A stretch of DNA of 64,000 nucleotides from a virus (taxonomy: Duplodnaviria; Caudoviricetes), in IMG/VR virus record IMGVR_UViG_3300032243_000867, positions 160,001 to 224,000 of that record; one strand, 5' to 3'. Below, one piece after another: positions 3,521 through 48,160 of this stretch (position 1 is its first letter; each line of letters begins with the position of its first letter). Made by a program: the position numbers and the translations under genes. The notes beneath the pieces were generated by a model. That model ran no database searches, had not been told where the DNA came from, and was given only the letters and a program-made list of their open reading frames with translations.

Positions 3521-3529
3521 CGGTGAACC

Positions 3530-3539
3530 TTACGCCCGC
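3530..3539 (-). promoter_or_regulatory. GCGGGCGTAA motif 9 nt upstream of the HNH start
   Basis: Same motif precedes several non-structural genes at 8-11 nt (see findings). Confidence 0.5.
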
Positions 3540-3550
3540 GACCCTATCCC

Positions 3551-3556
3551 TTCTAT
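3551..3556 (+). promoter_or_regulatory. TTCTAT motif 16 nt upstream of a virion gene (putative late promoter element)
   Basis: Recurrent CTAT-N14-16-start arrangement. Confidence 0.4.
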
Positions 3557-3572
3557 CCCCCACGGTGTAGCG

Positions 3573-7979: not shown

Positions 7980-7994
7980 CCAAAGGACCCATCA

Positions 7995-8501: not shown

Positions 8502-8524
8502 ACCCCCCGTAGAGTAGGACGCCC

Positions 8525-9316: not shown

Positions 9317-9326
9317 AAGGTGCCCC

Positions 9327-22467: not shown

Positions 22468-22476
22468 CGTCCCGTG

Positions 22477-28674: not shown

Positions 28675-29466
28675 ATGGACAGTCTGACCAGCCGCATCGC
28701 CCGCAAACACCTCGCCGCCAAGGCCCCTATCGGACCGATGACCTCCTACGAGGATTGGCTCGATAACAATCCCGAGTTCGCGAAGGCTTCGACGGTCGCG
28801 CCCTTCCTGATGCGGAAGCTGGTGATGGAACTGAAGCTTCGGGCGATGCCCGCTTCGTTGCGGTTCTTTCAGCTCGTGGATCAGGTCCATCATATGTCCC
28901 TCGGGGCTCCCGTTGAGGACTTGTCTCAGGAGTTCCGGGCGGCAGCGAAGTACCTGTCGCAAGCCGTGATCCGAACCCTCGGAGATGAGAAGGGTGCGGC
29001 CCTCGCGAACAGCATCACGGACTGTGCCGTGGACAACGCCGCAAACCTCCGCCGTATCGGGGCGGGGGCGAAGGGCGTGGTGTTCACGAACTTCGGCGTG
29101 TCCGTCGCGGAGGTTCTCCAGAGTCTATCCCGCGAGGCGGGGCTCTCCGCCGGGTATCAGGTCAAGACCATCGAGGGGACCCGGTGGCCTCTGATCCGTA
29201 TTCTCTCGAAGGACGAGAAGGGGCTCCGCGACCTTCAGGAGAACAACCCCGATCTCTACACCGAGCTTGTCGGGAACATCGAGCAAGCGGGCAAGTTCCA
29301 ATACGAGGTGGAGAAATCCATCATCGAGAAGGGGCTGGTCCCGACGACGGTGATGAGCGACGGCGTGCCCTCCCGGCCAGTGAGGATTACGTCACCAAGG
29401 AGAAGACCGTCTACACCCCGGACGGGCGCGTGCTCGGCGAAAAAGAGTTTCTCCGGGATCGCATGA
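28675..29466 (+). CDS. N-terminal part of a putative cargo protein (MDSLTSRIARKHLAA...); probably continuous with the downstream SNF2 via an indel near 29365-29380
   Basis: Codon bias is strong to ~29370, then switches to frame 3; preceded by TTCTAT-N14-ATG. Confidence 0.6.
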   Translation: MDSLTSRIARKHLAAKAPIGPMTSYEDWLDNNPEFAKASTVAPFLMRKLVMELKLRAMPASLRFFQLVDQVHHMSLGAPVEDLSQEFRAAAKYLSQAVIRTLGDEKGAALANSITDCAVDNAANLRRIGAGAKGVVFTNFGVSVAEVLQSLSREAGLSAGYQVKTIEGTRWPLIRILSKDEKGLRDLQENNPDLYTELVGNIEQAGKFQYEVEKSIIEKGLVPTTVMSDGVPSRPVRITSPRRRPSTPRTGACSAKKSFSGIA

Positions 29467-32366
29467 TGAAGGCCCGCGAGCAGGCCATGCTGACATCGGA
29501 GTTCTCTCCGATGTACGTGATGAACGCCAAGGGTCAGCCCGAGGTGGTTCGCCGCCCCGACCAGCTCAAAATCGAGGGCTTGTCGAAGCTCTCGGACGAT
29601 GACCTCAACAACCCGGAAATGATTCCCCTCGGAGCGGACGGCAACCCCCAGGAGGTTGATTTTCGGGCGATGACCGACAACAAGGCGTCGGCAAAAAATC
29701 AGGGCACCCGTATCTACCCGACGCGCCGGGACATCAACGGGCGGATCGTGATCGTGGACGGGCGCTTCAAGGGCTTCTACCTCGACGAGATGGTGAACCA
29801 GAAGGGCCGTCTGGTCGAGGGCACGGCCTACGACATGGGCGCGGACGGGATTCCCGTCGCGTTCGAGACGCTGGAACCGGACGGAAACCTCCGTCTCTCC
29901 ACGGTCAACAAGGAGCCCTACGTCACCCTCGATAGCCAGGGGAAGCTCCTCATCAAGATTCCCTTCATCGGCGGCGGTCGCGGCACGAAGGACCCCTTCA
30001 AGCGTGCCCGCGACTCGATGGCGTCTCGCGCTTCGATCCCCGAGAAGACGAAGTGGGTCAAGGGTCCCGACGGCAAGCGAACCAAGGAGAAGGTTCCGGG
30101 CCGCACCCGTACGACCATCTTCGAGGTGCCGAAGATCCGAGACGACGAGGACTCGAACACGCTGTTCACTTTTGAGCCCCAGGACTTCAACACCGTGCGA
30201 TCCGCCGTGGGCGGGATGTGTATGTCGGCGGAAGCCGCCAAGAAGCTCCGCGACTACTACGCCCAGCAAGCACGGGTTGAGGAATCCACCCGGCAAGAGA
30301 ATACCAAGAGCTACTCTCTCGACCGCATCGGCGGGTTCAAGACTCAGTTGGTTATCAACCCGGAGACGGGCGAGCCCTTCGACCCGCCGGTTCTCACGAA
30401 GGACCTGCTGTCGAAGCAGAAGGAAGCCCTGTCGTGGATCGAGGCCAAGGGCTACAAGGGCCTCGCGGCGCTTGATACGGGCGTGGGCAAGACCCTGCTC
30501 ACCATCGCCACGATGCAGAAGATGATTCGCGACGGCGCGGCGGGCGAAGGTTCGCGCTTCCTGTACGTCTGCCCGGACCACCTGCGGGGCAATTTTCCGA
30601 AGGAGCTTCAGGCTTGGATGACCGACGATGCCGCGAAGGGGCTTCAGTCCCGCGTGGACGTGATGTCCTACGAGGAGTTCCAGTTCGCGGTGAACGGCGG
30701 CAAGCGCCCCATGAAGCAGAAGGTTCCCGGCACCGAGAAGCAAGAGAAGATCATCGACCCCGCGACGGGCAAGCCCCAGCGCGGCCCGGACGGGAAGCTG
30801 ATGTACCGGGCGATCCCCGGCACCGAGAAGCAAGTGTCCGTCAAGGACGCAGAGGGCAAGCGCGTCTACGAGGCTATCGCCCCCGACCCCGAGCTCTCCA
30901 AGAAGTACGCCGCCGTGTTCTTCGACGAGGCCCACATTCTCACAAAAGACGAGAACAGCAAGTTCAGCGTCGCCGCTCAGAAGTTCGACCACCCCCGCAA
31001 GGTTCTCCTTACCGCGAGCCCGATGGAGGACGACCCCGACGAGCTCTACATCGGGGTGGCGATCACCAACAACTCGAAGCTCTCTAAGAAGGCGCTGGGG
31101 GCTTCGGGATCGCGGACTCTGACCCCGGCTCAGAAGGAGCTCATGGCCTTCCGCCGCAGGTTCGTGGATCGCAAGGCGGGCCGCGCTATGGGTATCAAGG
31201 ACGACCCGAAGAACGACCCGACGAAACGCCAGGACTTCGATGCGTGGGTCAAGAACGGTATGTACTTCGCGGACAAGCGGACCGTGGGCGCACCGGGGAC
31301 CAGCTCGTACGAGCAGTCTTTGAAGCTCCCCGACCTGCTGAAGCAGGACACCGTGTCTCTGACCATGCAACCGGAGGTCGAGATCGAGTACCGCAAGGCG
31401 GCGAAGGGCATGACCAAGCTGTTGAAGCTCATGTCCAAGGTCTTCCGCGACAAGGCTTCGGTTTCTTCGGCGGATTCTTCCGTCGTCGCCCGATTCGAGA
31501 CGGAGTTTCGCAAGTACCGCAAGCAGCTCGATATGCTGTCGAACTACCCGGACGAGGTGATCGACCCCGCCACGGGCAAAAAAAAGTTCCCCGGCGTGGC
31601 GAGCTCCAAGGTGGTCGGCGCGACGTGGCTCGTCCACGACAAGATCAAGAGCGGGAAGCGCACGCTTCTCTTCACGGACGACGAGAAGTTCGCCGTGAAG
31701 ACGGCGGAACAGATGAGCGAACACACCCCTAACATCAGCATCGCCGTCGCCCTCAAGGGGAAGGTCATCGTCTACCGCGGCGGGTCGGTGTACACCAAGG
31801 AGGGTGTCAAGCAGGTCTTCGGCCCCCGAGAGTACACGAACCTCAAGGGTGAGAAGGTTCCGAAGGGCGAGTGGGCCTCGCACGTTCTTCGCGAGATCAT
31901 GGGCGGCGATCCTTCGGTGAAGGCTATGGTCCTCACGAAGTCCTACGCCCTCGGTCAGAACCTCCAGATGTTCAACACCGTGGTTCACCTTGACCGCGAT
32001 GACTTCTCGAACGAGACGATGAAGCAGCGTACGGCGCGTGCGTGGCGCACGGGTCAGGGTGAGCCCGTCGAGGAGTACACGATGGATGCCGTGTACGACG
32101 ATGCGACGGGCAAGAGCGACCCGACGCTGGACGAGGCCCGGAAGTACGTTCAGGAGATTCAAGAAGAGGTCTTCAACGAGATCGTCCACAAATCCCGCGA
32201 GGCCGAGCTCGGGAAAGAGTGGTCGGAAATGAGGGAGACTCAGGCCAGCATGGTCGAAGTGAATCGAAAACTCTTCGAGATGGCCCTCGCCCCGTACGTC
32301 TCTGCGGTGGCCGATCACACCTACAACCAAGCCGTCACCAACCAGGCCGCGCCCCGCAACCCCTGA
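29367..32366 (+). CDS. Second SNF2/SF2 helicase-like protein (large); start uncertain (frameshifted continuation, or ATG 29463)
   Basis: KQKEAL..LAALDTGVGKT (I), FFDEAH (II), LLTASP (III), GQNLQ..VVHLD..QRTARAWRTGQ (V/VI). Confidence 0.85.
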   Translation, partial: ALPASEDYVTKEKTVYTPDGRVLGEKEFLRDRMMKAREQAMLTSEFSPMYVMNAKGQPEVVRRPDQLKIEGLSKLSDDDLNNPEMIPLGADGNPQEVDFRAMTDNKASAKNQGTRIYPTRRDINGRIVIVDGRFKGFYLDEMVNQKGRLVEGTAYDMGADGIPVAFETLEPDGNLRLSTVNKEPYVTLDSQGKLLIKIPFIGGGRGTKDPFKRARDSMASRASIPEKTKWVKGPDGKRTKEKVPGRTRTTIFEVPKIRDDEDSNTLFTFEPQDFNTVRSAVGGMCMSAEAAKKLRDYYAQQARVEESTRQENTKSYSLDRIGGFKTQLVINPETGEPFDPPVLTKDLLSKQKEALSWIEAKGYKGLAALDTGVGKTLLTIATMQKMIRDGAAGEGSRFLYVCPDHLRGNFPKELQAWMTDDAAKGLQSRVDVMSYEEFQFAVNGGKRPMKQKVPGTEKQEKIIDPATGKPQRGPDGKLMYRAIPGTEKQVSVKDAEGKRVYEAIAPDPELSKKYAAVFFDEAHILTKDENSKFSVAAQKFDHPRKVLLTASPMEDDPDELYIGVAITNNSKLSKKALGASGSRTLTPAQKELMAFRRRFVDRKAGRAMGIKDDPKNDPTKRQDFDAWVKNGMYFADKRTVGAPGTSSYEQSLKLPDLLKQDTVSLTMQPEVEIEYRKAAKGMTKLLKLMSKVFRDKASVSSADSSVVARFETEFRKYRKQLDMLSNYPDEVIDPATGKKKFPGVASSKVVGATWLVHDKIKSGKRTLLFTDDEKFAVKTAEQMSEHTPNISIAVALKGKVIVYRGGSVYTKEGVKQVFGPREYTNLKGEKVPKGEWASHVLREIMGGDPSVKAMVLTKSYALGQNLQMFNTVVHLDRDDFSNETMKQRTARAWRTGQGEPVEEYTMDAVYDDATGKSDPTLDEARKYVQEIQEEVFNEIVHKSREAELGKEWSEMRETQASMVEVNRKLFEMALAPYVSAVADHTYNQAVTNQAAPRNP

Positions 32367-32656: not shown

Positions 32657-32693
32657 CCCCACCCCCTATCCGTTCTATCGCCCGCGCGCGGTG

Positions 32694-33296
32694 ATGGATC
32701 CCATCACCGCTGCGGACGACAACGAGCCCACGAACCCGAAGCTCTGGGAGAAGTGCCAAGACGTAGCGAAGTCTCGCTACACCAAGTGGCCCAGTGCCTA
32801 CGCGGTCGGGCACGCCCTCAAGCTCTACAAGGACGAGGGGGGTGGGTGGAAGAAGACCGCCAGCGCCGCCCGTGTCGCGTCCCGCTACCTGTCCGCCAAG
32901 GGTAAGGCCAAGAAGGACGTAGGTCACGGGGGCCTCGACGAGTGGTTCAGCGGCCACGGTCAGGGCAAGGGCAAATCACCCGGTGAGGCGCGGTGGGGAG
33001 ATTGGGTGGCGATCTCGCCCGTGAAGCGCACGATCACCCGCGAGGACGGGACCAAGAAGACCTACGAGCCCGGTGACATCATTGGGCCGTGCGGCGACCT
33101 CACGGACGACCCCGACTGGAAAGACCTCACCCGGGGCGGCAAGACCCCTTTCAAGTGCATGGCCCGACCCAAGGCCCACGACATGGCTAAGGGCGAACGC
33201 GCTGACAAGGCCCGCGAGAAGATGCGCGTGCAGGAGAAGGCCCCCAAGGGCAAGAAGCCCGTGAACACGCCGACGTTCAAGGACGACGGGGACTAG
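32694..33296 (+). CDS. Basic two-module phage protein with central KKTA / RVASRYL motif
   Basis: Module 1 KWPSAYAVG..YK..GGGWK and module 2 GLDEWF..WV..GPCG..FKCM..KA resemble small domains I recall from T4-like/cyanophage hypothetical proteins (unverified). Confidence 0.65.
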   Translation: MDPITAADDNEPTNPKLWEKCQDVAKSRYTKWPSAYAVGHALKLYKDEGGGWKKTASAARVASRYLSAKGKAKKDVGHGGLDEWFSGHGQGKGKSPGEARWGDWVAISPVKRTITREDGTKKTYEPGDIIGPCGDLTDDPDWKDLTRGGKTPFKCMARPKAHDMAKGERADKAREKMRVQEKAPKGKKPVNTPTFKDDGD

Positions 33297-35344: not shown

Positions 35345-35401
35345 ATGGACAGACTCGCTTGCGTCATTGCTGCTGGTGTTTGGGACGGGGATTCATGCTG
35401 A
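35345..35401 (+). pseudogene. Orphaned 5' end (MDRLACVIAAGVWDGDSC*) of the Ntn-hydrolase gene
   Basis: ACVIAAGVWDG vs ACIIAAGEWGG at 36084-36116 (8/11 identical). Confidence 0.7.
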
Positions 35402-35463
35402 CCCTGAATCTCACACCACGACGGTCTCTTCCATCATCCCCGTGGGTACCAAACAGAACCCAC

Positions 35464-36072
35464 ATGGATACTGGCGGATTGTATCTCCTGTGGCTTTCGG
35501 ACTCCCACTACTACGGGGGTAGAGCCAGGTGTTTCAATGAGCGGTGGCAAGGCCACCTCAAGGCCCTTCGGCAAGGCAAGCACTGCAACCCTTGGATGCA
35601 GCGGTTGTACAATATCCACAAGATGTTTGAGCCCGAGGTGTGCCTGGAACTTCCAACGGGTGGGGATCATCAGGCTGCGGAACAAGCCTGGATTGATGAG
35701 AACTACGGGAAGCCGGGTTGCGTGAATCTCAGTCGGGCCGCCGATGGTGGTGCCATGACCGGACGAAGGCACACCGCGGAGACCCGGGCCAAGATGTCCG
35801 CTTCGCGGAAGGGTAAGCCAACCAAGGCTCCGTCCCTAGAAACTCGGGCCAAGATGTCGGAGTCAGGTCGAAAGAGGGCCAAGATTTTCGGGGTGAGCCG
35901 TCCTCACACGGAAGACACCAAGGCGAAGATGTCGTCTTCTCATAAGGGGCTTGTGTTCACAGAAGAGCACAAGCTCAATATGTCTCTGAATCACGCGAGC
36001 AAAAGGGACCCGGAAGGTTACAGGGAAAAACTGCGGGCCGCTTGGTCTAGGAAAAAGGGAGTCACGCCGTGA
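35464..36072 (+). mobile_element. Free-standing GIY-YIG-like homing endonuclease with NUMOD3 repeats
   Basis: GGLYLL..YYGGRA..RWQGH..L..GKHCN..EQAWID..N; HTAETRAKMS, SLETRAKMS, HTEDTKAKMS; more A/T-ending codons than flanks. Confidence 0.85.
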
Positions 36073-38186
36073 ATTCCAGAACCGCATGTATCATCGCCGC
36101 AGGAGAGTGGGGAGGAAAGCGTGCTCTGTTGAAGTCGAGGGACCGCAACTACACCCCCGAGGTCACCCTCGTCCGCGAGCTCCTCGACGGCGTCGAGGTC
36201 GCGTATATGCGCGATGACGTGACGGGGTGGTGCGAGGGCATGAACGAGCATGGCATCGGGATTACCAACGCGGCGCTCGCCGTGGGGATCGACGAGGCCG
36301 AAGGAAAACTCGTCAAAGTCACGGGCAAGACGACGAAGGACGGCAAACGAATCCTCAAGGCTCTATCCTGCGACAACCTCGACGATGCCGTCGAGTCCGT
36401 CTGCGAGTTCATGGGGGGCTTGAAGGGGCACACGTTCGTATCGACCCCCAACAAGGTGCTCTGTATCGAGCAGACTCGGGAGCACGAGTGCCGGGTGATG
36501 GAACTGAACCCGGAGGATGTTCACGTCCGTACCAACCACGGCCACTACCACACAGACGCCGGGTACACGGAGGGGAAGGATTACGTCTCGTCGGTGATCC
36601 GCCGCGAGAAGGCGCTTCTCACCCTTCGCGATTTGGAGAGTCACCTTGATCTCGGCCCCGGTCTGATGAAGGGCCGGATGAAGGATCGGAACGATCCGAA
36701 CAACATGGTGCGGGACACGAACAATATGTCCACCACCTCCCAGATGGTGATGAACCTCACGGATCGGGAGGCAGTCTTCTACGTCATCCCCGGCAAGATG
36801 GACTACGAGGGGATAGAAGACAACCTCCCTGACGGTTACTCACCGAAGATCAAGATCAAAGTGTTCAGCTACCGCAACGGAGGCAAGGAGCTCGTGGAAC
36901 TCTCCCTAAAGACGGGGTTGCGCCGGAAGTCCGTGGACCCGGTGAAGCTCGCTTCCCGGTACCTGATGGCATCCTCGGCACACGCCAAGTCCATCGCGTT
37001 GATGAGTTTTCTGTCTGAGGTGGCCCGTGACGCTGGCGTCGCCCGACACGTCTACGTCGTCGGCGGTGCCGTGCGGAACTTCATCCTCGGTGTGCCCATC
37101 AAGGACATCGACGTGGTGGTGGACTCCGTGTCGGCGGGCCGGGATTCAGAGTGGTTCGCCCGAAAGGTGGTGGACGCCATCCCTGTCCCGACGAACCTCG
37201 CGACCAACCAGTACGGGGTGGGGATCCTCACCGTGAAGGGGGAGTGGCTGCTCGACGGGATCAACCTGAAGGGCGAGGTGATCGAGATCGCCAACGCCCG
37301 CAAGGAGTCCTACGAGGGTGCGGGGGGCAAGGGATACAAGCCCACGGACGTGTCCCCCGCGACCATTGAAGAGGATGTGTTCCGCCGAGAGTTCACGTTC
37401 AACACCCTGCTGTGGCGGATGCATGACCTCGCCAACGGCCCTGACAAGGCCGAAGTGATTGACCTCACGGGGCTGGGTCGTCAGCACCTTGAGCAGAAGC
37501 TCATCTCGACGCCCGTGGACCCCGACAAGACCTTCAGCGACGACCCGACTCGGATGCTCCGGGTCTTGAAGTTCTTGCTGCGGTATGACTTGACCATCTC
37601 GCCCGATGCTATGGCCTCTGTGAGGCGCAACGCCGCGAAGCTCAAGAATATGCCGTGGGAAGCTGTCGGGAACATCCTCGTCGGGGACATCCTCAAGTCA
37701 CCCAAGGCGACGATGGGCCTCAAAGTGATGCGTTCCCTTGGCCTACTCGACGTGATCGTCGAGATGGTGCAAGAGAACCCCCCGTTCGCGGCATACCTCA
37801 CCAAGCAACTGGCGAACGGCAACCATACGGTCGAGCTCTTGTTGGAGCTTGCCGACATCGGGATCGCGGGGAGGGTGCTGGACTTTTTGACGCCGAACGA
37901 GCGCGAGCAGTTCAAGCAGAACACCAGCGGATGGTCCAGTGACGAGGCAAGGAAGTACCTTGAAGCCCTGCGGAAACCCGCAGTGGACAACATGGCGCTC
38001 ATTCAAGAGTTCTCGTTGACGGGCAGGGCTCGCGCGAGCCTTGTCCCCATTGCTCGCGAGTTCCTCCTGTCGGACCCGAACTTGGCCGACCAAGACGTGA
38101 AACTCAACGACCGCGTGCGAGAGAGGCTCCGCGCATCCCCCGTCCGTGTCGCCCAACGGTTCGCTCGTCTATCGAGCCAACACTAG
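36069..38186 (+). CDS. Fusion: N-terminal Ntn-hydrolase (C45/choloylglycine-hydrolase-like) + class II tRNA nucleotidyltransferase (CCA-adding/poly(A) polymerase family)
   Basis: Cys7 CIIAAG..KSRDR..EGMNEHGIGITNAAL..RTNH; then YVVGGAVRN..KDIDVVV, ARKESY, EDVFRREFTFNTL, FSDDPTRMLR. Confidence 0.85.
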   Translation: MNSRTACIIAAGEWGGKRALLKSRDRNYTPEVTLVRELLDGVEVAYMRDDVTGWCEGMNEHGIGITNAALAVGIDEAEGKLVKVTGKTTKDGKRILKALSCDNLDDAVESVCEFMGGLKGHTFVSTPNKVLCIEQTREHECRVMELNPEDVHVRTNHGHYHTDAGYTEGKDYVSSVIRREKALLTLRDLESHLDLGPGLMKGRMKDRNDPNNMVRDTNNMSTTSQMVMNLTDREAVFYVIPGKMDYEGIEDNLPDGYSPKIKIKVFSYRNGGKELVELSLKTGLRRKSVDPVKLASRYLMASSAHAKSIALMSFLSEVARDAGVARHVYVVGGAVRNFILGVPIKDIDVVVDSVSAGRDSEWFARKVVDAIPVPTNLATNQYGVGILTVKGEWLLDGINLKGEVIEIANARKESYEGAGGKGYKPTDVSPATIEEDVFRREFTFNTLLWRMHDLANGPDKAEVIDLTGLGRQHLEQKLISTPVDPDKTFSDDPTRMLRVLKFLLRYDLTISPDAMASVRRNAAKLKNMPWEAVGNILVGDILKSPKATMGLKVMRSLGLLDVIVEMVQENPPFAAYLTKQLANGNHTVELLLELADIGIAGRVLDFLTPNEREQFKQNTSGWSSDEARKYLEALRKPAVDNMALIQEFSLTGRARASLVPIAREFLLSDPNLADQDVKLNDRVRERLRASPVRVAQRFARLSSQH

Positions 38187-38199
38187 GAAGAGATACCAA

Positions 38200-38913
38200 A
38201 TGGCAATCTACACATCCATCGGCGCGACCCCCGAGACGGCCCGCGCCATGATCGACGCCGTGGGGCCGACCCCCGACCAACAAACCCCCGCCCCGGGCGT
38301 CGGTGACGTTCTCTCTTGGAACGGGACAAACTGGGTGCCCGGTGCAACGGCCCCGGCGGGCTCCCTCCAGATGTACGCGGGTGCGACCGCCCCCTTCGGC
38401 TACCTTCTGTGCAACGGGGCGGCGGTCAGCCGCACGACCTATGCGGCTCTGTTCGCGGTGATCGGGGCGACCTACGGTGGCGGCGATGGGCTCAACACCT
38501 TCAACCTCCCCGACCTCCGTGGTCGCGGCCCTATCGGTGTCGGTACGGGCGCGGGTCTTACCGCACGGGTGCTAGGCGGGACGGGCGGCGCGGAGACGGT
38601 CACCCTCGACGCGACGACCATCCCGGGCCACACGCACACCGGCACGACGGACTCCAACGGGTCGCACGCGCACACGTCGAACGCCACGGGCGGTCAGGGA
38701 AACTACGGCCTCGCCCTCGCGGACGGTACCAACACGGTGACTTCGACGGACCCCAGCGCCGGGGAGCTCAACGTGTGGACCGTCCCGGCGGCGCTGTCCA
38801 TCGACGCGAACGGGGCGCACACGCACACGTTCACCACGGGTTCGACGGGCGGTGGCAGCGCGCACGCCAATATGCAGCCGTGGCTCGCCGTGAACTTCAT
38901 CATCAAGACGTGA
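38200..38913 (+). CDS. Phage tail-collar domain protein
   Basis: GSLQMYAG..APFGYLLCNGAAVSRTTYAALFAVIG..YGGGDG..TFNLPDLRGR; HTH repeats; NMQPWLAVNFIIK. Confidence 0.9.
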   Translation: MAIYTSIGATPETARAMIDAVGPTPDQQTPAPGVGDVLSWNGTNWVPGATAPAGSLQMYAGATAPFGYLLCNGAAVSRTTYAALFAVIGATYGGGDGLNTFNLPDLRGRGPIGVGTGAGLTARVLGGTGGAETVTLDATTIPGHTHTGTTDSNGSHAHTSNATGGQGNYGLALADGTNTVTSTDPSAGELNVWTVPAALSIDANGAHTHTFTTGSTGGGSAHANMQPWLAVNFIIKT

Positions 38914-38915
38914 CC

Positions 38916-40589
38916 ATGAACCACCGCCGCACCCGAACCGCCGACGTGCCCAAGAAGTACGAGCACATCGATTTCAAGCCCCCGCAGTCGGTGGCCGACG
39001 AGGCCGAGAAGGGCCTTGAGTACCGGGAGAAGGCCAGCCCGTCGAACAAGGGCGGGCTCACCCCGGCGGAAGCGGCCAAGCAGGGCATCGGTAGTGGGGT
39101 GCAGCGTGCGGTGAACCTCAAGAACCGCGACAACACCTCCCCCGAGGTCATCAAGCAGATGGCGGCGTTCTTCTCGCGCCACGAGAAGAACAAAGGTGTC
39201 TCTCCCGAGCACAAGGGGGAACCTTGGAACGACAAGGGCAACGTCGCGTGGTTGATCTGGGGCGGCGACTCCGGGCGGGCGTGGGCTGAAAAGGTGAAGA
39301 AGCAGATGGAAACCGCTGACGAGAAGGCGAAGAAGAAGGCTGATATCTCCCCGCCGCTGGGCGTGAAGGGTGGCCCGTGCAAGGTGGTCGAGAGGATCAA
39401 CAACGCCATTCGCAACCCCTCCATGCGGACCGACCTCATCGAGGATGCCCAGACGGGAGACCTGTCAAATCAAGACGCCCGAAAGGTCTACCCACTCGAC
39501 ACGGAGAGCGGGTCTGGGTTCAAGAGTTTCACCATCCTGCCCCATGCCCAGTTCCGCATGGATTACCGATCCATCACGGTCAAGGACGTGGAGGCGGCGC
39601 TCAACTCCTTCATCGTCCACGCGCAGGGTCTACAGAGGTCGAACCCTCGCCAGTACGAAGCTTTGATGGCGCAAGACAAGATCGAATGGATCGACCCCAA
39701 GACGCGCCTGAAAATCGTCTTCGCCACCGACGCAGGGCGCATCGAGATCGTCACCGTGTTCTGGAAGGGTCGGCAAGATCCTCCCCCTGCCGTCTGCGAG
39801 ACGCCTTTCAGGAACCTTGCCCGTCGCGTCGCAGCCCAACACCAGATGAAGGATCTGACCTCCGTGACCGAGTACGAACCCCCCTTTCAAGTTATCGAGG
39901 CCGAGCTCACGGTGCTGGAATCCCTCTGGTCGGACATCCAAGCGGTGCTCGATACCTACGCGGAGACGGTGCCCATGCCGCACGTCGGGCGCATCGCCGC
40001 CGCCGACCTCGCCCTGCACTCGCAGACGGAGGTGTTCGTCAAGTGCGAGCACGCGATGCGACACGCGGAGCGTGTAGTCAATATGTGTCGCACGCAGCTT
40101 CAACTCAGCCCCGGCAACGAGACGGTTTCCTCGTTCCTGCGGGACGCGCAGATGTTGTATGACCGCTTCTCGGAGGGGCGTGCGGCGGCGCGGGAAGTTC
40201 TCTCCGCGATGAGCCAGAAGATCCTGCCCGTTGCGCTGAAAAGCATCGTCGCGGAGGCGGTAGACGCCGTGAAGGCCGTCACCCGGTACCCGAACAGCGT
40301 GACCGTGAAGATTCACGCCCACATGGCCCCGGTGGAGCTCAACAACGGGGTGGTGTCGGCGCAGGTCTTCGACGCCTACGTCACCGTCTACCCGCTGCCG
40401 AAGGACGAATCCCCCGCCTACCAGCAGCTCGTGTTCACTCAACGCACCCTCGGCGACACCAACGTCTACCTCACGGTGATCGACCGCACGAACGCGGAAG
40501 CCCCCGCCAAGCCCGTGAAGGTCACGGACGGGGAGACCGCCGCCAAGAAGATCCTCGCCTCCCTCAAGGGCTGGTCGGGCTTCGTTTGA
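38916..40589 (+). CDS. Multi-module putative cargo protein (phage head-associated-type module + DUF4258/RelE-like module + helical C-terminal module)
   Basis: PPQSVADEAEKGL..FFSRHEKNK..AWLIWGG..AWA; ILPHAQFRMDYRSIT..DV..IVTVFW; separated by RTA, KKA and RRVAAQH. Confidence 0.6.
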   Translation: MNHRRTRTADVPKKYEHIDFKPPQSVADEAEKGLEYREKASPSNKGGLTPAEAAKQGIGSGVQRAVNLKNRDNTSPEVIKQMAAFFSRHEKNKGVSPEHKGEPWNDKGNVAWLIWGGDSGRAWAEKVKKQMETADEKAKKKADISPPLGVKGGPCKVVERINNAIRNPSMRTDLIEDAQTGDLSNQDARKVYPLDTESGSGFKSFTILPHAQFRMDYRSITVKDVEAALNSFIVHAQGLQRSNPRQYEALMAQDKIEWIDPKTRLKIVFATDAGRIEIVTVFWKGRQDPPPAVCETPFRNLARRVAAQHQMKDLTSVTEYEPPFQVIEAELTVLESLWSDIQAVLDTYAETVPMPHVGRIAAADLALHSQTEVFVKCEHAMRHAERVVNMCRTQLQLSPGNETVSSFLRDAQMLYDRFSEGRAAAREVLSAMSQKILPVALKSIVAEAVDAVKAVTRYPNSVTVKIHAHMAPVELNNGVVSAQVFDAYVTVYPLPKDESPAYQQLVFTQRTLGDTNVYLTVIDRTNAEAPAKPVKVTDGETAAKKILASLKGWSGFV

Positions 40590-43691: not shown

Positions 43692-44795
43692 ATGTCGCTC
43701 GACGTGCAATTGGCTTTTTTGTGCCCCCACCTGATCGGTGAGGAACGGGTTGCTCTGGGTAGCGACCGCCGCACGTTGTACACGTCAAAGCCCATCAACG
43801 GACCGTCCCTTCTACGAGTGCAGGCCAACGACGGGACGGACATCTCCCCTTACACGGGGCTTGTGACGCTCGCTTCGGTGAAGTCGTACCGCCGCGAGCC
43901 GTACAAGATCACCCTTGCGACCCGAACGCTCGTCGTCGTCTCCCAGACGGGTACGGCCACCGTGACGTTTCCCCAGGGGTACCTATCGGCGGCGCGGGTA
44001 ACGGACGCCCTCAACGCCGGGGCGGGGAGCCTCATCGTGGCGGCAGCTTCCACAACGGGCTACGTCACGATCACGGACAAGGGCAATCCCGGACCCGCTT
44101 CGCGCGTGCAACTCTCGGGAAGCGCGCTGGAACCTCTCGGGTTCGACCTTCAATCGGGCGCGAAGGGGCGCACGGTTGTCCCGCCGTGGAGGCTGTACTC
44201 TCGGAACGTCGTGAACCCGCAGGATGCCGTGGATTCCCTCGGGTACTACGTCGGGTTCGATGCCCCCGTATCGCAGAACCCCTACTTCACGGTGACGTAC
44301 ACCGTGGCCCCGAACCTGTGCCTTCGGTGCCTGACCACGGAGGTCGAGAACGATTACCGCTTCGACGCGCAGGGCGCGGCGCTGGTGGTGAAGGACGAGA
44401 ACCTCCTGTACCAATCCGTCCTGAAGTACCTTCTCACCGACATCAAATCGAATATGTACCACCCGTGGTACGGAAGCACTCTGAAGTCCCTTATCGGCAC
44501 GAAGGTTCTGAGCGGCGCGGCGGCGGGTATCCGTCAGTCGGTGAGCACGGCGCTGTCTACCTTCAAGGCGTTGCAGGACGCCCAAGCGAAGTACCAACGG
44601 ATCACGGCCAAGGAGAGACTTTTCTCCGTGGACAACATCGCCGTGGCTCAGTCCCCCGTTGATCCGACGGTGTTCTACGTTCAGGTCAGCGTGCGAAACT
44701 ACGCGAACGAACCCGTGGACATCACCATCGCGTACGCGGCACCGGGGACGTTCGCGCTACCGGGCACCAACCAGATCTCACTAGGGAACTATTGA
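43692..44795 (+). CDS. Baseplate wedge protein with C-terminal gp25-like domain
   Basis: LLYQSVLKYLLT..YHPWYGSTL..LIG matches the gp25/GPW pattern; directly upstream of baseplate J. Confidence 0.75.
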   Translation: MSLDVQLAFLCPHLIGEERVALGSDRRTLYTSKPINGPSLLRVQANDGTDISPYTGLVTLASVKSYRREPYKITLATRTLVVVSQTGTATVTFPQGYLSAARVTDALNAGAGSLIVAAASTTGYVTITDKGNPGPASRVQLSGSALEPLGFDLQSGAKGRTVVPPWRLYSRNVVNPQDAVDSLGYYVGFDAPVSQNPYFTVTYTVAPNLCLRCLTTEVENDYRFDAQGAALVVKDENLLYQSVLKYLLTDIKSNMYHPWYGSTLKSLIGTKVLSGAAAGIRQSVSTALSTFKALQDAQAKYQRITAKERLFSVDNIAVAQSPVDPTVFYVQVSVRNYANEPVDITIAYAAPGTFALPGTNQISLGNY

Positions 44796-47700
44796 TGGCC
44801 ACCTCGGTACAGATTCTCGGTCCCGACAATGTCCTCCGGGAAACCCTCATCTTTAGCACGACGCAGACCGCCCGGTTCTTCACGGGGGTTCTCCCCGATG
44901 ACACGGTGGACGTGGAGGTGTCCCTCTTCGGCCAGCCTTTCACCACGGACCCGACGCTGGTCGCGTTTCAGGGCACGGGCTTCGTTGTCCCGAACCCCAC
45001 GGCATACCCCGGCGGGTTGGACCTTTTCTCGGGCGACAACGAGATTCAGGTCCGGGCCGTGTTCCTCTCGGGGACTCGTTCGCCCGCCGCGACCGCCACG
45101 GTGCATCTCCTTCCGGCGAACCAGTCCGAGACTTTCTCCCCTCCCACGGGCGTCACCCTCGAACGTCTGGACGGGTCGGTGAAGGTGACGGTGCTCGGGC
45201 TCTCGGACGCCCGCATTGTCGGATACAACTTCTACGCTTCGTCCACGCAAGGGGGCGGGACGGCGGGTTACTCTCTTCTCAACGTGAACCGGGTGACTAC
45301 GGGGACGCCCGTTCAGAACGTCACCGACCTCTACACCCTCACGGCGGACAACGTAGCTCAGACGGCCACGCCCCTCTACTACCGGGCGGTTATCACGCAA
45401 GAGAACAGCGCCGAGACGGTTCTATCGACGGACGTAGACTCGCGGGTGGAGATCCCCAGTGCGGTGACGGCTCTTCGGTCTACCGTGACGGTTTCCTCCG
45501 TCGAGACTCTCACCTACTACAGCTTTCAGCACAACCGCTCTGCCTCGGCGCTATCTATCCCCGCCACGATCTTCAACGGGGTGTTCGCTAGCACCCCGGC
45601 GACGGACCTTCTGTACTACGTCTCCACGGCGATCTACTACGACAGCATCCTTCGGGTGGAGTACGAGTCGTACTACTCCACGGAGGTGACGGGGGCTCCC
45701 GCGCAAGTACGCCAACAGATCAACGGCATCACCGCCGTGTCTCGGCAACAGGTTCTGGAGAACGCCATCGCTAGCATCTACCGGCAAAACCCCGACATCG
45801 CGGTTCAACCGGGCTCGGTGGTGCGGGATACGTTCCTCGACCCGTTCACCACGGAGGCCGAACGTCTCCGTCTCATGCTGGACTACGTGTACCGCGCGAG
45901 TTCGTTCGACACCCTGCTCTTGGTAGACGACCCCTCGGGATCGGGAGTCTCTCAGCCCCCGGCTTCCTCCCCCTACAAGACCGCGCTAGCGGCGGCGCTG
46001 TTCTACGCGAACGTGGACGACGTGCAAAACGTCATCGACGGAAGCTTCGACAAGATCGCCGCGAACTTCGACGTGTTCCGCCTCGCGGGCACCCCCGCCG
46101 TGGGGGAGGTTCGCTTCTACACCTCCGCCGTTCCCTCCCAGACCGTTCAGATTCCTCTGGGAACGGTGGTGAAGGGCGGTGGGGTTGATTTCCGAACTAC
46201 GCGCTCCGCGTCGATGCCGGTGTCCCAGCTCGCTTCGTTCTACAACCCCTCCACCCGCCTTTACTCGGTCACGGTGCCGGTGCGGGCGATCAGCGTGGGG
46301 GCATCTACGAACGTCGGCCCGAACCAACTCACCAACTCGAACGTGTACGGGATGTCCGTTACGAACGATGCGGCGACCTTCGGCGGCGCGGACATCGAGA
46401 CCAATGCGCGTCTCGCCGCCCGCGCCCGGAACTCCCTCGCTTCGGTGGATACGGGTACGACCCTCGGGTATCTCCAAACGGCAGCGGGGGTGCCGGGAAC
46501 GATCCAGAACATGGTAGTCCGGGCGGGCGACCCCCTCATGCAGCGGGACTACGACACCACTCTTCAGCGGCACTTGGGCGGGAAGGTAGACGTGTGGGCG
46601 CGGGGGCTCCGCACCGTCACCGTCACGGACTCCTTCGCGTTCACCTACGAACGCCGAGACGGCGTGCAGTTCGTCGTGATCGGCAACCCGATGAACTACG
46701 TGTTCCGAGCGGTGAGCGAAGAGGTGACGCCCGACAACCCTCTGGCCGCGATGCTGTACTACCCTTCGCTGGACCTGGGGCTGAAGAACGTGACAACGGG
46801 CACGACGTTCAACCTCACCAACGTCACCTACCTGAACTTCAATACCATCCAGCTCGACGCGACCCTCACGCAACCGCCCGTCACCCTCACGGACATCGTG
46901 CTAGGGGACTTCCGGTTCCGCCTCGGAAACAAGCACACCTTCGTGCGCCAGCCCGTGAACGCTGTGTCTTCGGTGGTCGGAGACGTTACGGGGTCGCTAG
47001 ACTTCGACTTGTTCTCTCTGGTTCACCCGAACGGGCCTCTGGGCCTCGGGTGCAGCACCAAGGCCGGAGACTACCTCCAGATCAACCAGTCCACCGACCC
47101 GGCGGCGGTTACTCCCTCGGGGAACCTCATCCCGGTTTCTTCCGAACCCCACGTCATCACCGGGTTCTACACGGAGTACCTGTACTTCCTCGGTGCGGAG
47201 ACTCTCTCCATCGTGGTGAAGGACAACACCAACTCGATTACCTACAAGGGTCCCTACGATCCCAGCGGGTCGCCCGATTACCTCATCGTTGAGGGCACCT
47301 CGACCACGGCGGCGGGTATCAAGCGCACCTCGACCAGCGCGATCCCGGACGGCGCGGTCATTCTCATCTCGTACAGCTACTACGAGAACTTCGCCGTGAC
47401 CTACACGACGAACTTGGTGACCTCGGTGCTTCAGCAAGAGCTTGACGACATGGCTCACGCCACAGCGGACGTTCTCGCAAAACAAGCCGTTCTCACCCCG
47501 GTGGACATCACGGCTACGGTGATTCTGAAGAAGGGCGTGGACCGCGTGAACGCGGACCTCGCGATCCGCAACAATCTCCAGTACCTCGCGGGGACGCTCA
47601 AGCTCGGTGACCCGATGCGTCGCAGCGACGTGATCGGTGAGATCGACGGGACCGCCGGGGTGTCCTACGTCGTTGTCCCGCTCACAAAAATGGTACGGGC

Positions 47701-48160
47701 GACGGGGTGCCAGATCGTGCGGAACGATCTGGCTACGGGCTCCTTCGCGGACTCGTTCCTCATCCCCGATTGGTCCAACGGCCAGTATCAGACGTGGCTG
47801 ATTCTCGAAGAGCTCACGGCCCCGACCGCTACGGGGGGCGGGCCTATCAACGAGTTTCGTGGGGTGTACCAAGACGACAACGAGCTCACCCTTCAGTTGT
47901 CCGCGCCGCAGAACCTCGCCCTCGCTGGAGGGCAAGCCTACATCATCGGCAGCGAGGGTCAGGTGATCCCCGGTTACGGAACGGGTGCCGTGAAGAACCG
48001 TGTGCTGGTCTCCCTCCCCGTAGGGGACACCCCGACGAACCACACGTACTGGTGTACCTACACCACGTCGGAGGACGTGGGCGACAAGGACATCGACCCG
48101 AACTCGATGGAGTTCTTGGTGCTGGGTGATGTGCAAATTACGTTTGACGAGGATAGATAG
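44795..48160 (+). CDS. Baseplate J/gp6-like wedge protein
   Basis: PGSVVRD..DP, GEVRFY..IPLGT, FGGADIETN..L.AR, GGKVDVW, PVDITATV..G. Confidence 0.8.
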   Translation: MATSVQILGPDNVLRETLIFSTTQTARFFTGVLPDDTVDVEVSLFGQPFTTDPTLVAFQGTGFVVPNPTAYPGGLDLFSGDNEIQVRAVFLSGTRSPAATATVHLLPANQSETFSPPTGVTLERLDGSVKVTVLGLSDARIVGYNFYASSTQGGGTAGYSLLNVNRVTTGTPVQNVTDLYTLTADNVAQTATPLYYRAVITQENSAETVLSTDVDSRVEIPSAVTALRSTVTVSSVETLTYYSFQHNRSASALSIPATIFNGVFASTPATDLLYYVSTAIYYDSILRVEYESYYSTEVTGAPAQVRQQINGITAVSRQQVLENAIASIYRQNPDIAVQPGSVVRDTFLDPFTTEAERLRLMLDYVYRASSFDTLLLVDDPSGSGVSQPPASSPYKTALAAALFYANVDDVQNVIDGSFDKIAANFDVFRLAGTPAVGEVRFYTSAVPSQTVQIPLGTVVKGGGVDFRTTRSASMPVSQLASFYNPSTRLYSVTVPVRAISVGASTNVGPNQLTNSNVYGMSVTNDAATFGGADIETNARLAARARNSLASVDTGTTLGYLQTAAGVPGTIQNMVVRAGDPLMQRDYDTTLQRHLGGKVDVWARGLRTVTVTDSFAFTYERRDGVQFVVIGNPMNYVFRAVSEEVTPDNPLAAMLYYPSLDLGLKNVTTGTTFNLTNVTYLNFNTIQLDATLTQPPVTLTDIVLGDFRFRLGNKHTFVRQPVNAVSSVVGDVTGSLDFDLFSLVHPNGPLGLGCSTKAGDYLQINQSTDPAAVTPSGNLIPVSSEPHVITGFYTEYLYFLGAETLSIVVKDNTNSITYKGPYDPSGSPDYLIVEGTSTTAAGIKRTSTSAIPDGAVILISYSYYENFAVTYTTNLVTSVLQQELDDMAHATADVLAKQAVLTPVDITATVILKKGVDRVNADLAIRNNLQYLAGTLKLGDPMRRSDVIGEIDGTAGVSYVVVPLTKMVRATGCQIVRNDLATGSFADSFLIPDWSNGQYQTWLILEELTAPTATGGGPINEFRGVYQDDNELTLQLSAPQNLALAGGQAYIIGSEGQVIPGYGTGAVKNRVLVSLPVGDTPTNHTYWCTYTTSEDVGDKDIDPNSMEFLVLGDVQITFDEDR

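What the first reader, a model, noticed from the sequence alone, without database searches (positions are those of the whole stretch)
36069..38186. Ntn-hydrolase fused to a tRNA nucleotidyltransferase
Seen: one 705 aa ORF joins a Cys-nucleophile Ntn domain (36087-~36890) to a class II nucleotidyltransferase (~36980-38100). The DxD is intact, a basic/acidic loop ARKESY is present, and I see no poly(A)-polymerase signature. The domains are linked by KLASRYLMA and followed by RVAQRF. I do not know this architecture from cellular enzymes. Inference: a virion-delivered CCA-repair enzyme countering host tRNA 3'-end-attacking defences, perhaps released from the Ntn domain by processing. The RRDFT motif reads RREFT and GGAVRD reads GGAVRN.
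Basis: partly seen in the sequence, partly recalled or inferred. Interest (0 to 1): 0.75.

Follow-up and report, generated by a model that had tools for sequence, protein, structure and literature searches.

The report
Phage Ntn-hydrolase fused to tRNA nucleotidyltransferase
A freshwater jumbo phage encodes one protein that joins a phage-specific cysteine Ntn-hydrolase to a complete tRNA CCA-type nucleotidyltransferase; it is one of many shuffled combinations of enzyme modules in this phage group, not a dedicated two-step machine.

Summary
ORF 36069-38186 (705 aa) is real. Independent metagenome contigs run continuously across the domain junction, and the same fusion recurs in relatives down to 47% identity.

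Residues 7-277 fold with high confidence as a Cys-Ntn hydrolase, closest to C45/IAT, and Cys7 aligns with the known nucleophiles. Residues 303-687 are a full class II tRNA nucleotidyltransferase (head, neck, body, tail), and its catalytic motifs are invariant across the family.

Both domains are cassettes of a combinatorial "polyvalent protein" system of uncultured jumbo phages:
- The Ntn module occurs alone, at the N-terminus, internally or at the C-terminus, beside topoisomerase IB, GGACT/ChaC, 2H, zeta toxin and others.
- The NTase module is fused most often to RNA-repair domains (2H, HAD-SAK, RNA ligase).
- On the Ntn tree the pairing needs at least 11 gains or losses.

tRNA 3'-end repair is the likeliest role of the NTase. 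Ntn self-processing would remove only the 6-residue leader, so it cannot free the NTase. Virion delivery is untested.

New here: the "linker" is the NTase module's own N-terminal leader (RVAxRF motif). The residues before the Ntn cysteine follow clade-specific codes ([KR]-x-A or [LIVM]-x-E), and the second code tracks T4-type prohead proteases.

The scan had already noted related NTase fusions and this motif on other DNA.

The parts
36069..38186 (+). Whole ORF, 705 aa: Ntn hydrolase module joined to a class II nucleotidyltransferase module
   Evidence: Continuous in independent contigs. Same fusion in relatives at 47-97% identity.
36069..36086 (+). 6-residue leader VNSRTA, ending R-T-A just before the nucleophile. 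It must be removed for Ntn activity.
   Evidence: [KR]-x-[AGS] precedes the Cys in 84 of 132 family copies. That removal is needed is inferred from Ntn enzymology.
36087..36899 (+). Cys-Ntn hydrolase domain (aa 7-277). Cys7 is the nucleophile; KSRDR (aa 22-26) and RTNHG (aa 154-158) are conserved active-site-type motifs.
   Evidence: AF2 model pLDDT 94.5. Foldseek hits to IAT, BSH, NAAA, PVA and TANGO2, with Cys7 on IAT C103, BSH C2 and NAAA C126. Family invariants.
36945..36989 (+). Inter-domain segment KLASRYLMASSAHAK. This is the NTase module's own N-terminal leader, carrying the R-V-A-x-R-[FYW] type motif, kept inside the fusion.
   Evidence: Standalone NTases start with M-x(3-5)-RVAxRF-xNAxxHxR-SIALMKFL. 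The motif sits a fixed 15 aa before the first helix in 19 of 31 cases. Domain-swap breakpoint here.
36975..38129 (+). Class II tRNA nucleotidyltransferase (aa 303-687) with head, neck, body and tail. Motifs: GGAVRN 37062-37079, KDIDVVVD 37101-37124, ARKESY 37296-37313, RREFTFN 37383-37403, DLTGLG 37461-37478, SDDPTRMLRVLKF 37536-37574.
   Evidence: Pfam and NCBIfam. PDB sequence hits to cca1/cca2, A-adding and CCA-adding enzymes. AF2 pLDDT 92.9. Alignments of 380-450 columns to class II enzymes. Motifs invariant in 59 relatives.
38145..38162 (+). C-terminal RVAQRF motif, followed by ARLSSQH and the stop. In relatives the next module follows directly at this point.
   Evidence: P0004 continues into the module that the window encodes at 38925-40589.
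35359..36072 (+). GIY-YIG/NUMOD3 homing endonuclease. Its stop overlaps the ORF start. It is an insertion specific to this variant.
   Evidence: Pfam and PHROG. Absent from contigs of runs X2 and X3, where 35385-36156 is replaced by about 43 nt, and from L001. The first 35 aa of the ORF are mosaic.
38146..38913 (+). Tail-collar-domain ORF inserted between the fusion gene and the downstream module gene
   Evidence: Pfam Collar E 1.6e-22. 642-648 nt are absent in runs X2 and X3 and in L001.
38925..40589 (+). Downstream module protein (phrog_2859 region, weak DUF4258-like region). Fused directly to the Ntn domain or to the NTase in relatives.
   Evidence: (P0016, P0025, P0004)

Best explanation
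The ORF encodes a two-module 'polyvalent' enzyme of an uncultured freshwater jumbo phage. The held record is 266 kb, 64% GC, and about 59% complete.

Module 1 is a member of a phage-specific family of Cys-Ntn hydrolases, C45-like in fold. Its catalytic Cys7 becomes active only after the 6-residue leader (...R-T-A) is removed. It most likely hydrolyses or transfers an amide- or thioester-linked group on a polar substrate that is not yet known.

Module 2 is a complete class II tRNA nucleotidyltransferase. It most likely rebuilds missing C-C-A nucleotides on tRNA 3' ends clipped by host nucleases, working with the 2H cyclic-phosphodiesterase that this genome encodes in a second polyvalent protein.

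The two modules are independent cassettes. They were joined by recombination at module boundaries, which are marked by the NTase module's own N-terminal leader motif R-V-A-x-R-[FYW].

Shown here: the folds, the nucleophile position, the motif conservation, the shuffling, and the reality of the fusion. Inferred: the substrates, leader removal, and repair (rather than maturation) as the main role.
For: - Ntn fold and nucleophile. The Cys is conserved in nearly all of 132 copies, including Met-Cys starts.
- The family is essentially viral and unnamed.
- NTase. An intein sits inside RREFTFN in relative P0039, which marks a functionally critical site.
- Repair context: NTase relatives are fused to 2H, LigT, HAD_SAK_1 and InPase. 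P0153 is RNA ligase - NTase - HAD_SAK - 2H - Ntn - TopoIB. This genome has 2H + TopoIB in one protein at genome 93334-96804.
- Defences that clip tRNA 3' tails exist (Cas12a3, PMC12851939). CCA-adding enzymes of jumbo phages are already read as repair enzymes (PMC7824862).
- Shuffling: of the top 150 Ntn clusters, 50 stand alone, 55 are N-terminal, 23 internal and 22 C-terminal. Partners are TopoIB, GGACT/ChaC, 2H, PAP2, zeta toxin, GNAT, ART and others. The 'has NTase' label needs at least 11 changes on the Ntn tree, and P0016 (no NTase) is sister to P0002. P0005 shows a domain swap.
Against: - No biochemical data exist for any member of either phage family.
- The NTase carries family-specific substitutions (GGAVRN, RREFT, DDPTR) and a divergent motif E. 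It scores far below the NCBIfam equivalog cut-offs (79.7 against 438.8 bits), so CCA specificity is not assured.
- No RNA ligase or RtcB was found in the held 59% of the genome.
- The direct Ntn-then-NTase adjacency is kept from 47% to 97% identity, and the pair also occurs in reverse order (P0015). That could reflect functional coupling rather than chance.
- The phage's only detected tRNA (Leu-TAG) lacks an encoded CCA, so simple maturation is also possible.
Confidence: 0.6

Rival explanations
1. Coupled bifunctional enzyme. The Ntn domain removes an acyl, aminoacyl, N-acyl-aminoacyl or peptidyl group (or another amide-linked block) from tRNA 3' ends, and the fused NTase then rebuilds CCA: 'unblock and rebuild' on one polypeptide.
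For: The direct Ntn-NTase adjacency is kept from 47% to 97% identity, and the reverse order also exists. In P0153 the Ntn domain directly follows an RNA-repair block. The many invariant charged residues of the Ntn family suggest a polar substrate.
Against: The NTase is a minority partner: about 8 of 100 multidomain Ntn clusters, against TopoIB in 9 of 69 and 15 of 25. At least 11 gains or losses are needed on the tree, and near-identical Ntn domains occur with and without the NTase. One third of Ntn clusters are standalone proteins.
Confidence: 0.15
2. Maturation rather than repair. The NTase exists to add CCA to phage-encoded tRNA(s), or to tRNA-like elements that lack an encoded CCA, independently of any host attack.
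For: The single tRNA-Leu(TAG) in the genome has no encoded CCA.
Against: Only one tRNA was found in the held fragment. The tRNA-like elements are not recognised by Rfam, and a strict scan does not exceed shuffled controls. The family's recurrent fusion to end-healing and ligase domains points to damage repair.
Confidence: 0.2
3. The NTase is not a tRNA enzyme. It tails other RNAs, by poly(A) or oligo-C/A addition, to mark host transcripts for decay or to modify phage RNAs.
For: The best NCBIfam hit by E-value is the PcnB subfamily. Motif E is divergent and motifs A, B and D carry family-specific substitutions.
Against: The full body and tail domains align with tRNA-bound CCA- and A-adding enzymes. 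The top PDB sequence hits are tRNA nucleotidyltransferases. The fusion partners are tRNA/RNA end-repair domains.
Confidence: 0.1
4. The fusion is an assembly or frameshift artefact that joins two separate genes.
For: None found.
Against: Independent contigs from other studies span the junction without frame-breaking changes. Ten or more full-length fusions occur in other samples.
Confidence: 0.01

Closest known systems
Class II CCA-adding / tRNA nucleotidyltransferases, including those reported in jumbo phages (Iyer et al. 2021, PMC7824862)
   Same: PolyA_pol head domain, motifs A-D, and head-neck-body-tail architecture. Full-length structural alignment to the B. stearothermophilus, T. maritima, Planococcus, A. 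aeolicus and human enzymes.
   Different: About 20% identity to solved enzymes. It has GGAVRN, RREFT and DDPTR in place of GGxVRD, RRD and EDxxR, and motif E is divergent. It scores far below the equivalog cut-offs. It carries an N-terminal RVAxRF leader and is fused to an Ntn hydrolase.
E. coli multifunctional Cca (class II NTase + HD phosphohydrolase) and 'Swiss-army-knife' RNA-repair proteins (Pfam HAD_SAK_1 context)
   Same: An NTase combined on one polypeptide with another enzyme. Relatives of this NTase carry end-healing domains (2H, HAD_SAK_1) and RNA ligase.
   Different: Here the partner is a Cys-Ntn amidohydrolase or acyltransferase, which is not a phosphoesterase and has no known role in RNA repair.
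Polyvalent proteins of phages and conjugative elements (Iyer et al. 2017, PMC5512222)
   Same: Disparate enzymatic domains on one phage polypeptide, shuffled among relatives. The shared domain repertoire includes 2H, InPase, ART-PolyVal, GNAT, zeta toxin and DUF4258.
   Different: That paper mentions neither an Ntn domain nor a CCA-type NTase (word search). No MuF, portal or zincin peptidase domains were seen here. The boundaries carry an R-V-A-x-R-[FYW] leader motif.
MEROPS C45 / isopenicillin-N acyltransferase (IAT) and other Cys-Ntn hydrolases (BSH/PVA C59, NAAA C89, secernins C69, TANGO2/NRDE)
   Same: An alpha-beta-beta-alpha Ntn fold with an N-terminal Cys nucleophile, an R/D pair about 17-19 residues downstream, and a TNH motif shared with IAT.
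   Different: It fails the Pfam AAT and NCBIfam C45 cut-offs. Its own clusters are about 100% viral. The leader is only 0-12 residues, or the domain sits inside giant proteins. The substrate is unknown.

Membership tests
Class II tRNA nucleotidyltransferase (PolyA_pol, PF01743) | Head domain scores above the Pfam gathering threshold | tested here: met
   54.8 bits against a cut-off of 23, aa 328-479
Class II tRNA nucleotidyltransferase (PolyA_pol, PF01743) | Motif A (GGxVRD plus the DxD carboxylates) and motif B (RRD) | tested here: met
   GGAVRN, KDIDVVVD and RREFTFN are present. G37 G38 A39 R41 K50 D51 D53 and R144 R145 F147 N150 are invariant in 59 relatives. D->N and D->E are family-wide variants.
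Class II tRNA nucleotidyltransferase (PolyA_pol, PF01743) | Motif D nucleotide template (E-D-x-x-R) | tested here: met
   SDDPTR: the D and R are kept and are invariant (D196 D197 R200 in A3). It aligns to EDPLR of S. pombe cca2. The first residue is D, not E.
Class II tRNA nucleotidyltransferase (PolyA_pol, PF01743) | Head-neck-body-tail architecture for tRNA binding | tested here: met
   Model pLDDT 92.9. 380-450 aligned columns with 6qy6, 1miv, 3h38, 4wc2, 5hc9 and 4x4w.
Class II tRNA nucleotidyltransferase (PolyA_pol, PF01743) | Orthology to cellular CCA-adding enzymes (NCBIfam equivalog cut-offs) | tested here: not met
   TIGR02692 79.7 against 438.8 bits; PRK13299 64.7 against 290. This is a distinct phage clade.
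Class II tRNA nucleotidyltransferase (PolyA_pol, PF01743) | Template-independent addition of exactly C-C-A to tRNA | not testable with these tools
   Needs an enzyme assay. Motif E is divergent, so specificity is open.
Cys-Ntn hydrolase superfamily / MEROPS C45 | Four-layer alpha-beta-beta-alpha Ntn fold | tested here: met
   pLDDT 94.5. Foldseek probability 1.00 to IAT, BSH, NAAA and PVA.
Cys-Ntn hydrolase superfamily / MEROPS C45 | Nucleophile at the start of the first beta-strand, aligned with known nucleophiles | tested here: met
   Cys7 falls on IAT C103, BSH C2 and human NAAA C126 from the aligned ranges. The Cys is conserved in the family.
Cys-Ntn hydrolase superfamily / MEROPS C45 | Sequence membership of C45 (Pfam AAT / NCBIfam C45_proenzyme cut-offs) | tested here: not met
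   AAT 16.7 against 23.2 bits; C45_proenzyme 36.6 against 85 bits. Profile against PDB sequences gives only IAT at E 0.23.
Cys-Ntn hydrolase superfamily / MEROPS C45 | Autoproteolytic exposure of the nucleophile | not testable with these tools
   Leaders of 0-12 aa and internal copies imply that cleavage is needed. Who does the cutting is unknown.
Polyvalent proteins (Iyer et al. 2017) | Two or more domains of disparate biochemical activity on one polypeptide of a phage or plasmid, recombined among relatives | tested here: met
Polyvalent proteins (Iyer et al. 2017) | Packaged in the virion and injected with the DNA | not testable with these tools
   No MuF or portal fusions in 94 scanned relatives. 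The gene lies between replication genes and tail/baseplate genes. The only hints are indirect, from the leaders.

The most novel reading that the evidence does not exclude
The Ntn module is a zymogen whose catalytic cysteine is unmasked by the phage's own head-maturation protease, not only by self-cleavage. The P3-P1 residues follow clade-specific codes: [LIVM]-x-E in phages with a T4-type S77 protease and [KR]-x-[AGS] in this lineage. The R-V-A-x-R-[FYW] leaders would then be capsid-targeting tags. On this reading the Ntn-NTase protein and its sister modules are packaged cargo, switched on inside the capsid and injected to repair or unblock tRNA ends at the very start of infection.
Probability: 0.12. 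Interest if true: 0.8.

Novelty: new variant of a known kind. Interest (0 to 1): 0.5.

Why it matters
Phage CCA-adding enzymes and polyvalent proteins are both known, so the fusion itself is a new combination rather than a new principle. Three things are worth having:
- A large, unnamed family of Cys-Ntn hydrolases that is essentially restricted to phages (452 clusters at 50% identity; 539 IMG/VR loci). It serves as a recurrent module of giant multi-enzyme proteins. When it sits internally it must create a cleavage point in the polyprotein.
- A clear modular grammar: module boundaries coincide with retained N-terminal leaders that carry an R-V-A-x-R-[FYW] motif.
- A testable link between the residues before the Ntn cysteine and the type of head protease the phage carries.

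With tRNA-tail-cleaving defences now described (Cas12a3), a phage NTase family that is repeatedly wired to end-healing domains is a natural candidate counter-defence to test.

Tried and rejected
- **Phage database, DNA:** megablast of 15 kb around the gene against INPHARED found no match.
- **Phage database, protein:** tblastn found no record covering both halves; only the separate domains hit.
- **PHROGs:** no family for the Ntn half.
- **TANGO2/NRDE membership:** this was a recollection prompted by the C-I-I...NRD spacing. A family profile against PDB sequences does not recover it, and TANGO2 ranks below IAT in the fold searches. I do not file the domain there.
However, a strict acceptor + T-arm scan gives counts within the shuffled range, and Rfam finds no tRNA-like match. 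Kept only as a lead.
- **RNA ligases:** RtcB and RNA ligase (PF09414) are absent from the held genome. The record is only 59% complete, so this is not informative.
- **S78 prohead protease:** absent from this genome and from MA9V-1.
- **Leader-code / S77 association:** suggestive only. The [KR]-x-A records are less complete (12-79%), the classes are clades, some leaders are as short as MINE, and Met-Cys copies need no protease.
- **RNA evidence:** the metatranscriptome contigs over the NTase region (run X18) are too few to claim expression, and DNA carry-over is not excluded.
- **Complex prediction:** none was run, because I claim no binding.
Full report
**1. Observation.**
The window holds an uninterrupted ORF at 36069-38186 (+) of 705 aa. 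It has a GTG start preceded by AAGGGAG.

Pfam places a PolyA_pol head domain at aa 328-479 (E 1.6e-14, above the gathering score) and a weak PolyA_pol RNA-binding domain at 508-566. The N-terminal half gives only sub-threshold hits: AAT (E 0.006) and NCBIfam C45_proenzyme (E 3e-9). PHROGs names only the C-terminal half, as a tRNA nucleotidyltransferase.

**2. The fusion is real.**
The junction region is held in freshwater and lake metagenomes from more than a dozen studies. Contigs from two independent studies run continuously over 36156-38040 and 36156-38185. Their only length change is an in-frame 6-nt insertion after 37324, which gives GKGKGY instead of GKGY. Full-length Ntn-NTase proteins also occur in other assemblies at 97, 83, 82, 80, 72, 58, 53, 48 and 47% identity. 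Some of these lie on contigs of 220-372 kb.

**3. The N-terminal domain.**
An AlphaFold2 model built on 56 homologs has mean pLDDT 94.5, and its first strand starts at residue 8.

Foldseek against the PDB returns isopenicillin-N acyltransferase (C45) first. After it come CV2077, bile-salt hydrolases, NAAA, penicillin V acylase and TANGO2, all at probability 1.00. Against Swiss-Prot models the aligned ranges put Cys7 on IAT Cys103, BSH Cys2 and human NAAA Cys126.

In the family the Cys is almost universal. K22, R24, D25, N156, R178 and others are invariant. By sequence the family fails the C45 cut-offs, and a family profile finds only IAT, at E 0.23, among solved structures.

In the ESM Atlas the family's own clusters are about 100% viral and unnamed. 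Bacterial NRDE/TANGO2 and C45 clusters are the next structural neighbours. I therefore call it a phage-specific Cys-Ntn hydrolase family that is C45-like, not a member of C45.

**4. The C-terminal domain.**
The best solved relatives by sequence are the S. pombe cca2/cca1 enzymes, the A. aeolicus A-adding enzyme and the T. maritima, Planococcus and B. stearothermophilus CCA-adding enzymes. A model built on 59 homologs has pLDDT 92.9. It aligns over 380-450 columns with class II CCA-, CC- and A-adding enzymes, including tRNA complexes. So head, neck, body and tail are all present.

Across relatives at about 55% identity, these elements are invariant: GGAVR, KDxD, ANARKESY, RRxFxxN, DxTGxG and FxDDPxRxxRxxKF. 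One relative (P0039) carries a LAGLIDADG intein inserted exactly in RREFTFN|C...HN|TLLW.

Motif E is divergent, and the scores are far below the NCBIfam equivalog cut-offs. Specificity for CCA, CC, A or poly(A) therefore cannot be decided from sequence.

**5. Genomic setting.**
The window is bases 160001-224000 of a 265,895-bp IMG/VR virus record. The record has 64% GC, is linear, and is 59% complete by CheckV. Around the gene lie:
- DNA polymerase A (22474-25137)
- an SNF2 helicase (29184-32366)
- a DUF5872 protein (32691-33296)
- a GIY-YIG/NUMOD3 homing endonuclease (35359-36072)
- a tail-collar ORF (38146-38913)
- a module protein (38925-40589)
- baseplate J (44792-48160)

The 72% relative keeps this synteny but has neither the endonuclease nor the tail-collar ORF. 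Close variants in other metagenomes lack exactly these two segments.

The genome contains one Ntn and one NTase copy. It has one tRNA (Leu-TAG), which has no encoded CCA. It has one 2H phosphoesterase, fused to topoisomerase IB, at genome 93334-96804. RtcB and RNA ligase were not found in the held fragment.

**6. The pairing is one combination among many.**
A whole-database search seeded with the Ntn domain alone finds 452 clusters at 50% identity. Of the best 150, 50 are standalone proteins of about 270 aa, 55 carry the domain at the N-terminus, 23 internally and 22 at the C-terminus, in proteins of up to 2,792 aa.

Pfam tallies on 69 + 25 multidomain members show these partners: topoisomerase IB (9 and 15), PolyA_pol (4 and 3), GGACT/ChaC, DUF5661, 2H/LigT, PAP2, HAD_SAK_1, RNA ligase, InPase, SOD, PS decarboxylase, GNAT, zeta toxin, ART-PolyVal and DUF4258.

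The NTase family in turn is fused to 2H/LigT, InPase, DUF5661, ART-PolyVal, HAD_SAK_1, TopoIB and SOD. P0153 reads RNA ligase - NTase - HAD_SAK - 2H - Ntn - TopoIB.

Both domains occur together in 17 of the 265 fetched proteins. They may be directly adjacent, separated by 85-275-aa spacers, in reverse order (P0015) or far apart (P0153).

On a maximum-likelihood tree of 160 Ntn domains, the label 'has NTase' needs at least 11 changes for 17 rows. P0016 (Ntn + downstream modules, no NTase) is sister to P0002 (Ntn + NTase) at near-identical sequence. P0005 combines a P0006-type Ntn domain with an NTase about 100% identical to the window's.

This is the behaviour of the 'polyvalent proteins' described by Iyer et al. 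2017 (PMC5512222). That paper mentions neither an Ntn domain nor a CCA-type NTase.

**7. What follows for mechanism.**
Ntn hydrolases use the free alpha-amino group of the nucleophile, so the peptide bond before the Cys must be cut. That is established enzymology of the superfamily.

In the window protein this cut removes only the leader VNSRTA and leaves the NTase attached. It would fit P0015, and internal copies such as P0153, where the cut would free everything upstream.

The most economical reading is two independent activities on one chain.

For the NTase I favour repair of clipped tRNA 3' ends, for three reasons:
- The family is wired again and again to end-healing and ligase domains.
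- Jumbo-phage CCA-adding enzymes are already interpreted this way (PMC7824862).
- Defences that cut tRNA 3' tails exist (PMC12851939).

Maturation of the phage's own CCA-less tRNA remains a live alternative.

**8. The 'linker' is a retained leader.**
The pattern [VLI]-A-x-R-[FYWH] occurs 157 times in the 265 fetched proteins, against 19.8 +/- 3.8 in shuffles. Only 4 occurrences lie inside domain cores. In this genome's ORFs it occurs 18 times against 6.8 +/- 3.0. The consensus is R-V-A-x-R-[FYW]-L.

Standalone NTases begin M-x(3-5)-RVAxRF-xNAxxHxR-SIALMKFL. The strict motif lies within 30 aa upstream of the first conserved helix in 31 of 80 NTase modules, against 1.3% of random windows. In 19 of those 31 it lies at a fixed distance of 15 aa.

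So KLASRYLMASSAHAK in the window protein is the NTase module's own N-terminal leader. The C-terminal RVAQRF is where the next module begins in relatives (P0004). The same motif separates 2H from TopoIB in the genome's second polyvalent protein and closes several small proteins.

I have quantified it, but I cannot say what it binds.

**9. Leader codes before the cysteine.**
Of 132 Ntn copies:
- 84 have [KR]-x-[AGS] before the Cys
- 41 have Glu at -1, and 40 of those have L/I/V/M at -3
- 4 start Met-Cys

All the Glu-class rows fall in one well-supported clade.

The cultured Chryseobacterium phage MA9V-1 has a standalone homolog that starts MTSANNNEFLNE|C. It also has an annotated T4-type (S77) prohead protease. 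T4-type, phiKZ-type and SPN3US head proteases all cut after Glu. T4 cargo proteins carry 10-20-residue N-terminal targeting propeptides (PMC5694885).

Among IMG/VR records, S77 was found in 8 of 14 Glu-class and 4 of 4 Met-Cys-class genomes, including all 5 that are at least 90% complete. It was found in 0 of 7 records that are [KR]-x-A class or unclassified, and not in this genome.

This fits leader removal by the head protease, and hence packaging. It is confounded by phylogeny and by lower completeness in the [KR]-x-A records. It is also weakened by leaders as short as MINE and by copies with no leader at all. I treat it as a hypothesis, not a result.

**10. Verdict.**

The protein is a new combination within known kinds, namely phage CCA-type NTases and polyvalent proteins. 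It comes with a previously undescribed, widespread family of phage Ntn modules and a modular leader grammar that deserve experimental follow-up.

The scan had already met related NTase fusions and the motif on other DNA (e1-4119326, e1-5357390, e1-5374488).

Noticed in passing
window 35359-36072: A GIY-YIG/NUMOD3 homing endonuclease gene abuts the fusion gene, with a GTGA stop/start overlap. It is absent from close variants in other metagenomes, where 35385-36156 is replaced by about 43 nt. The first ~29-35 codons of the fusion gene are mosaic: 66% identical to P0002, which is otherwise ~100% identical, and 86% identical to P0006. This looks like co-conversion during homing.
   Followed up: partly
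window 38146-38913: A 255-aa tail-collar-domain ORF sits between the fusion gene and the downstream module gene. A 642-648-nt segment is missing in other metagenome variants and in the 72% relative, so this is a variant-specific insertion of a receptor-binding-type gene.
   Followed up: partly
window 32871-32888, 36948-36962, 38145-38162, 39825-39842; genome 93334-96804, 92345-92788, 258918-259415: A short R-V-A-x-R-[FYW] motif sits at N-terminal leaders, module junctions and C-termini of unrelated proteins. It is 8-fold enriched over shuffles, almost never falls inside domain cores, and is predicted helical. Its function is unknown; docking/targeting tag or processing signal are both possible.
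   Followed up: partly
genome G000 93334-96804 (outside the window; locus L004:10335-13802): A second polyvalent protein of 1156 aa: 2H phosphoesterase (24-128), RVAARY linker (168), eukaryotic-type topoisomerase IB core (198-398), a long K/E-rich region, and a C-terminal SVARRFL motif.
   Followed up: partly
protein P0039 (metagenomic relative): A LAGLIDADG intein is inserted inside the NTase motif B (RREFTFN|C...HN|TLLW). Earlier notes e1-5374488 and e1-5374504 describe the same in other genomes.
   Followed up: no
Ntn family, 132 copies; IMG/VR loci L010-L089: The residues before the nucleophile Cys follow clade-specific codes ([KR]-x-[AGS], [LIVM]-x-E, or Met-Cys). The Glu and Met classes co-occur with T4-type S77 prohead proteases (12 of 18 records), while the other records do not (0 of 7, plus this genome).
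   Followed up: partly
window 37324: The window's enzyme lacks two residues (GK) of the glycine/lysine-rich loop between motifs A and B that nearly all relatives have (GGKGKGYKP against GGKGYKP). The loop is the only low-confidence stretch of the NTase model (pLDDT about 61). It lies where class II enzymes have their flexible loop (from my own knowledge).
   Followed up: no
window 38925-40589: The downstream 554-aa protein is built of modules (a phrog_2859-like region and a weak DUF4258/RelE-like region). In relatives these are fused directly to the Ntn domain (P0016, P0025, P0056) or to the NTase (P0004, P0039).
   Followed up: partly
genome G000 342-14464 and about 265595 (loci L090, L091): Several elements carry GGTTCGAxTCC T-loops closed by an acceptor-like stem. 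The one at 2406-2456 has 7 bp + A + CCA. Rfam does not recognise them as tRNA, and a strict scan does not exceed shuffles. They are possible NTase substrates (lead from e1-5321436).
   Followed up: partly
genome G000 8031-8106 (+): Sub-threshold match to the Rfam CyVA-1 RNA motif (33.4 bits against gathering 41.4, E 4e-4). Together with the freshwater origin and 64% GC, this hints at a cyanobacterial host.
   Followed up: no
locus L001 14208-15617: A TnpB/IS605 OrfB gene is inserted next to the module genes in the 72% relative.
   Followed up: no
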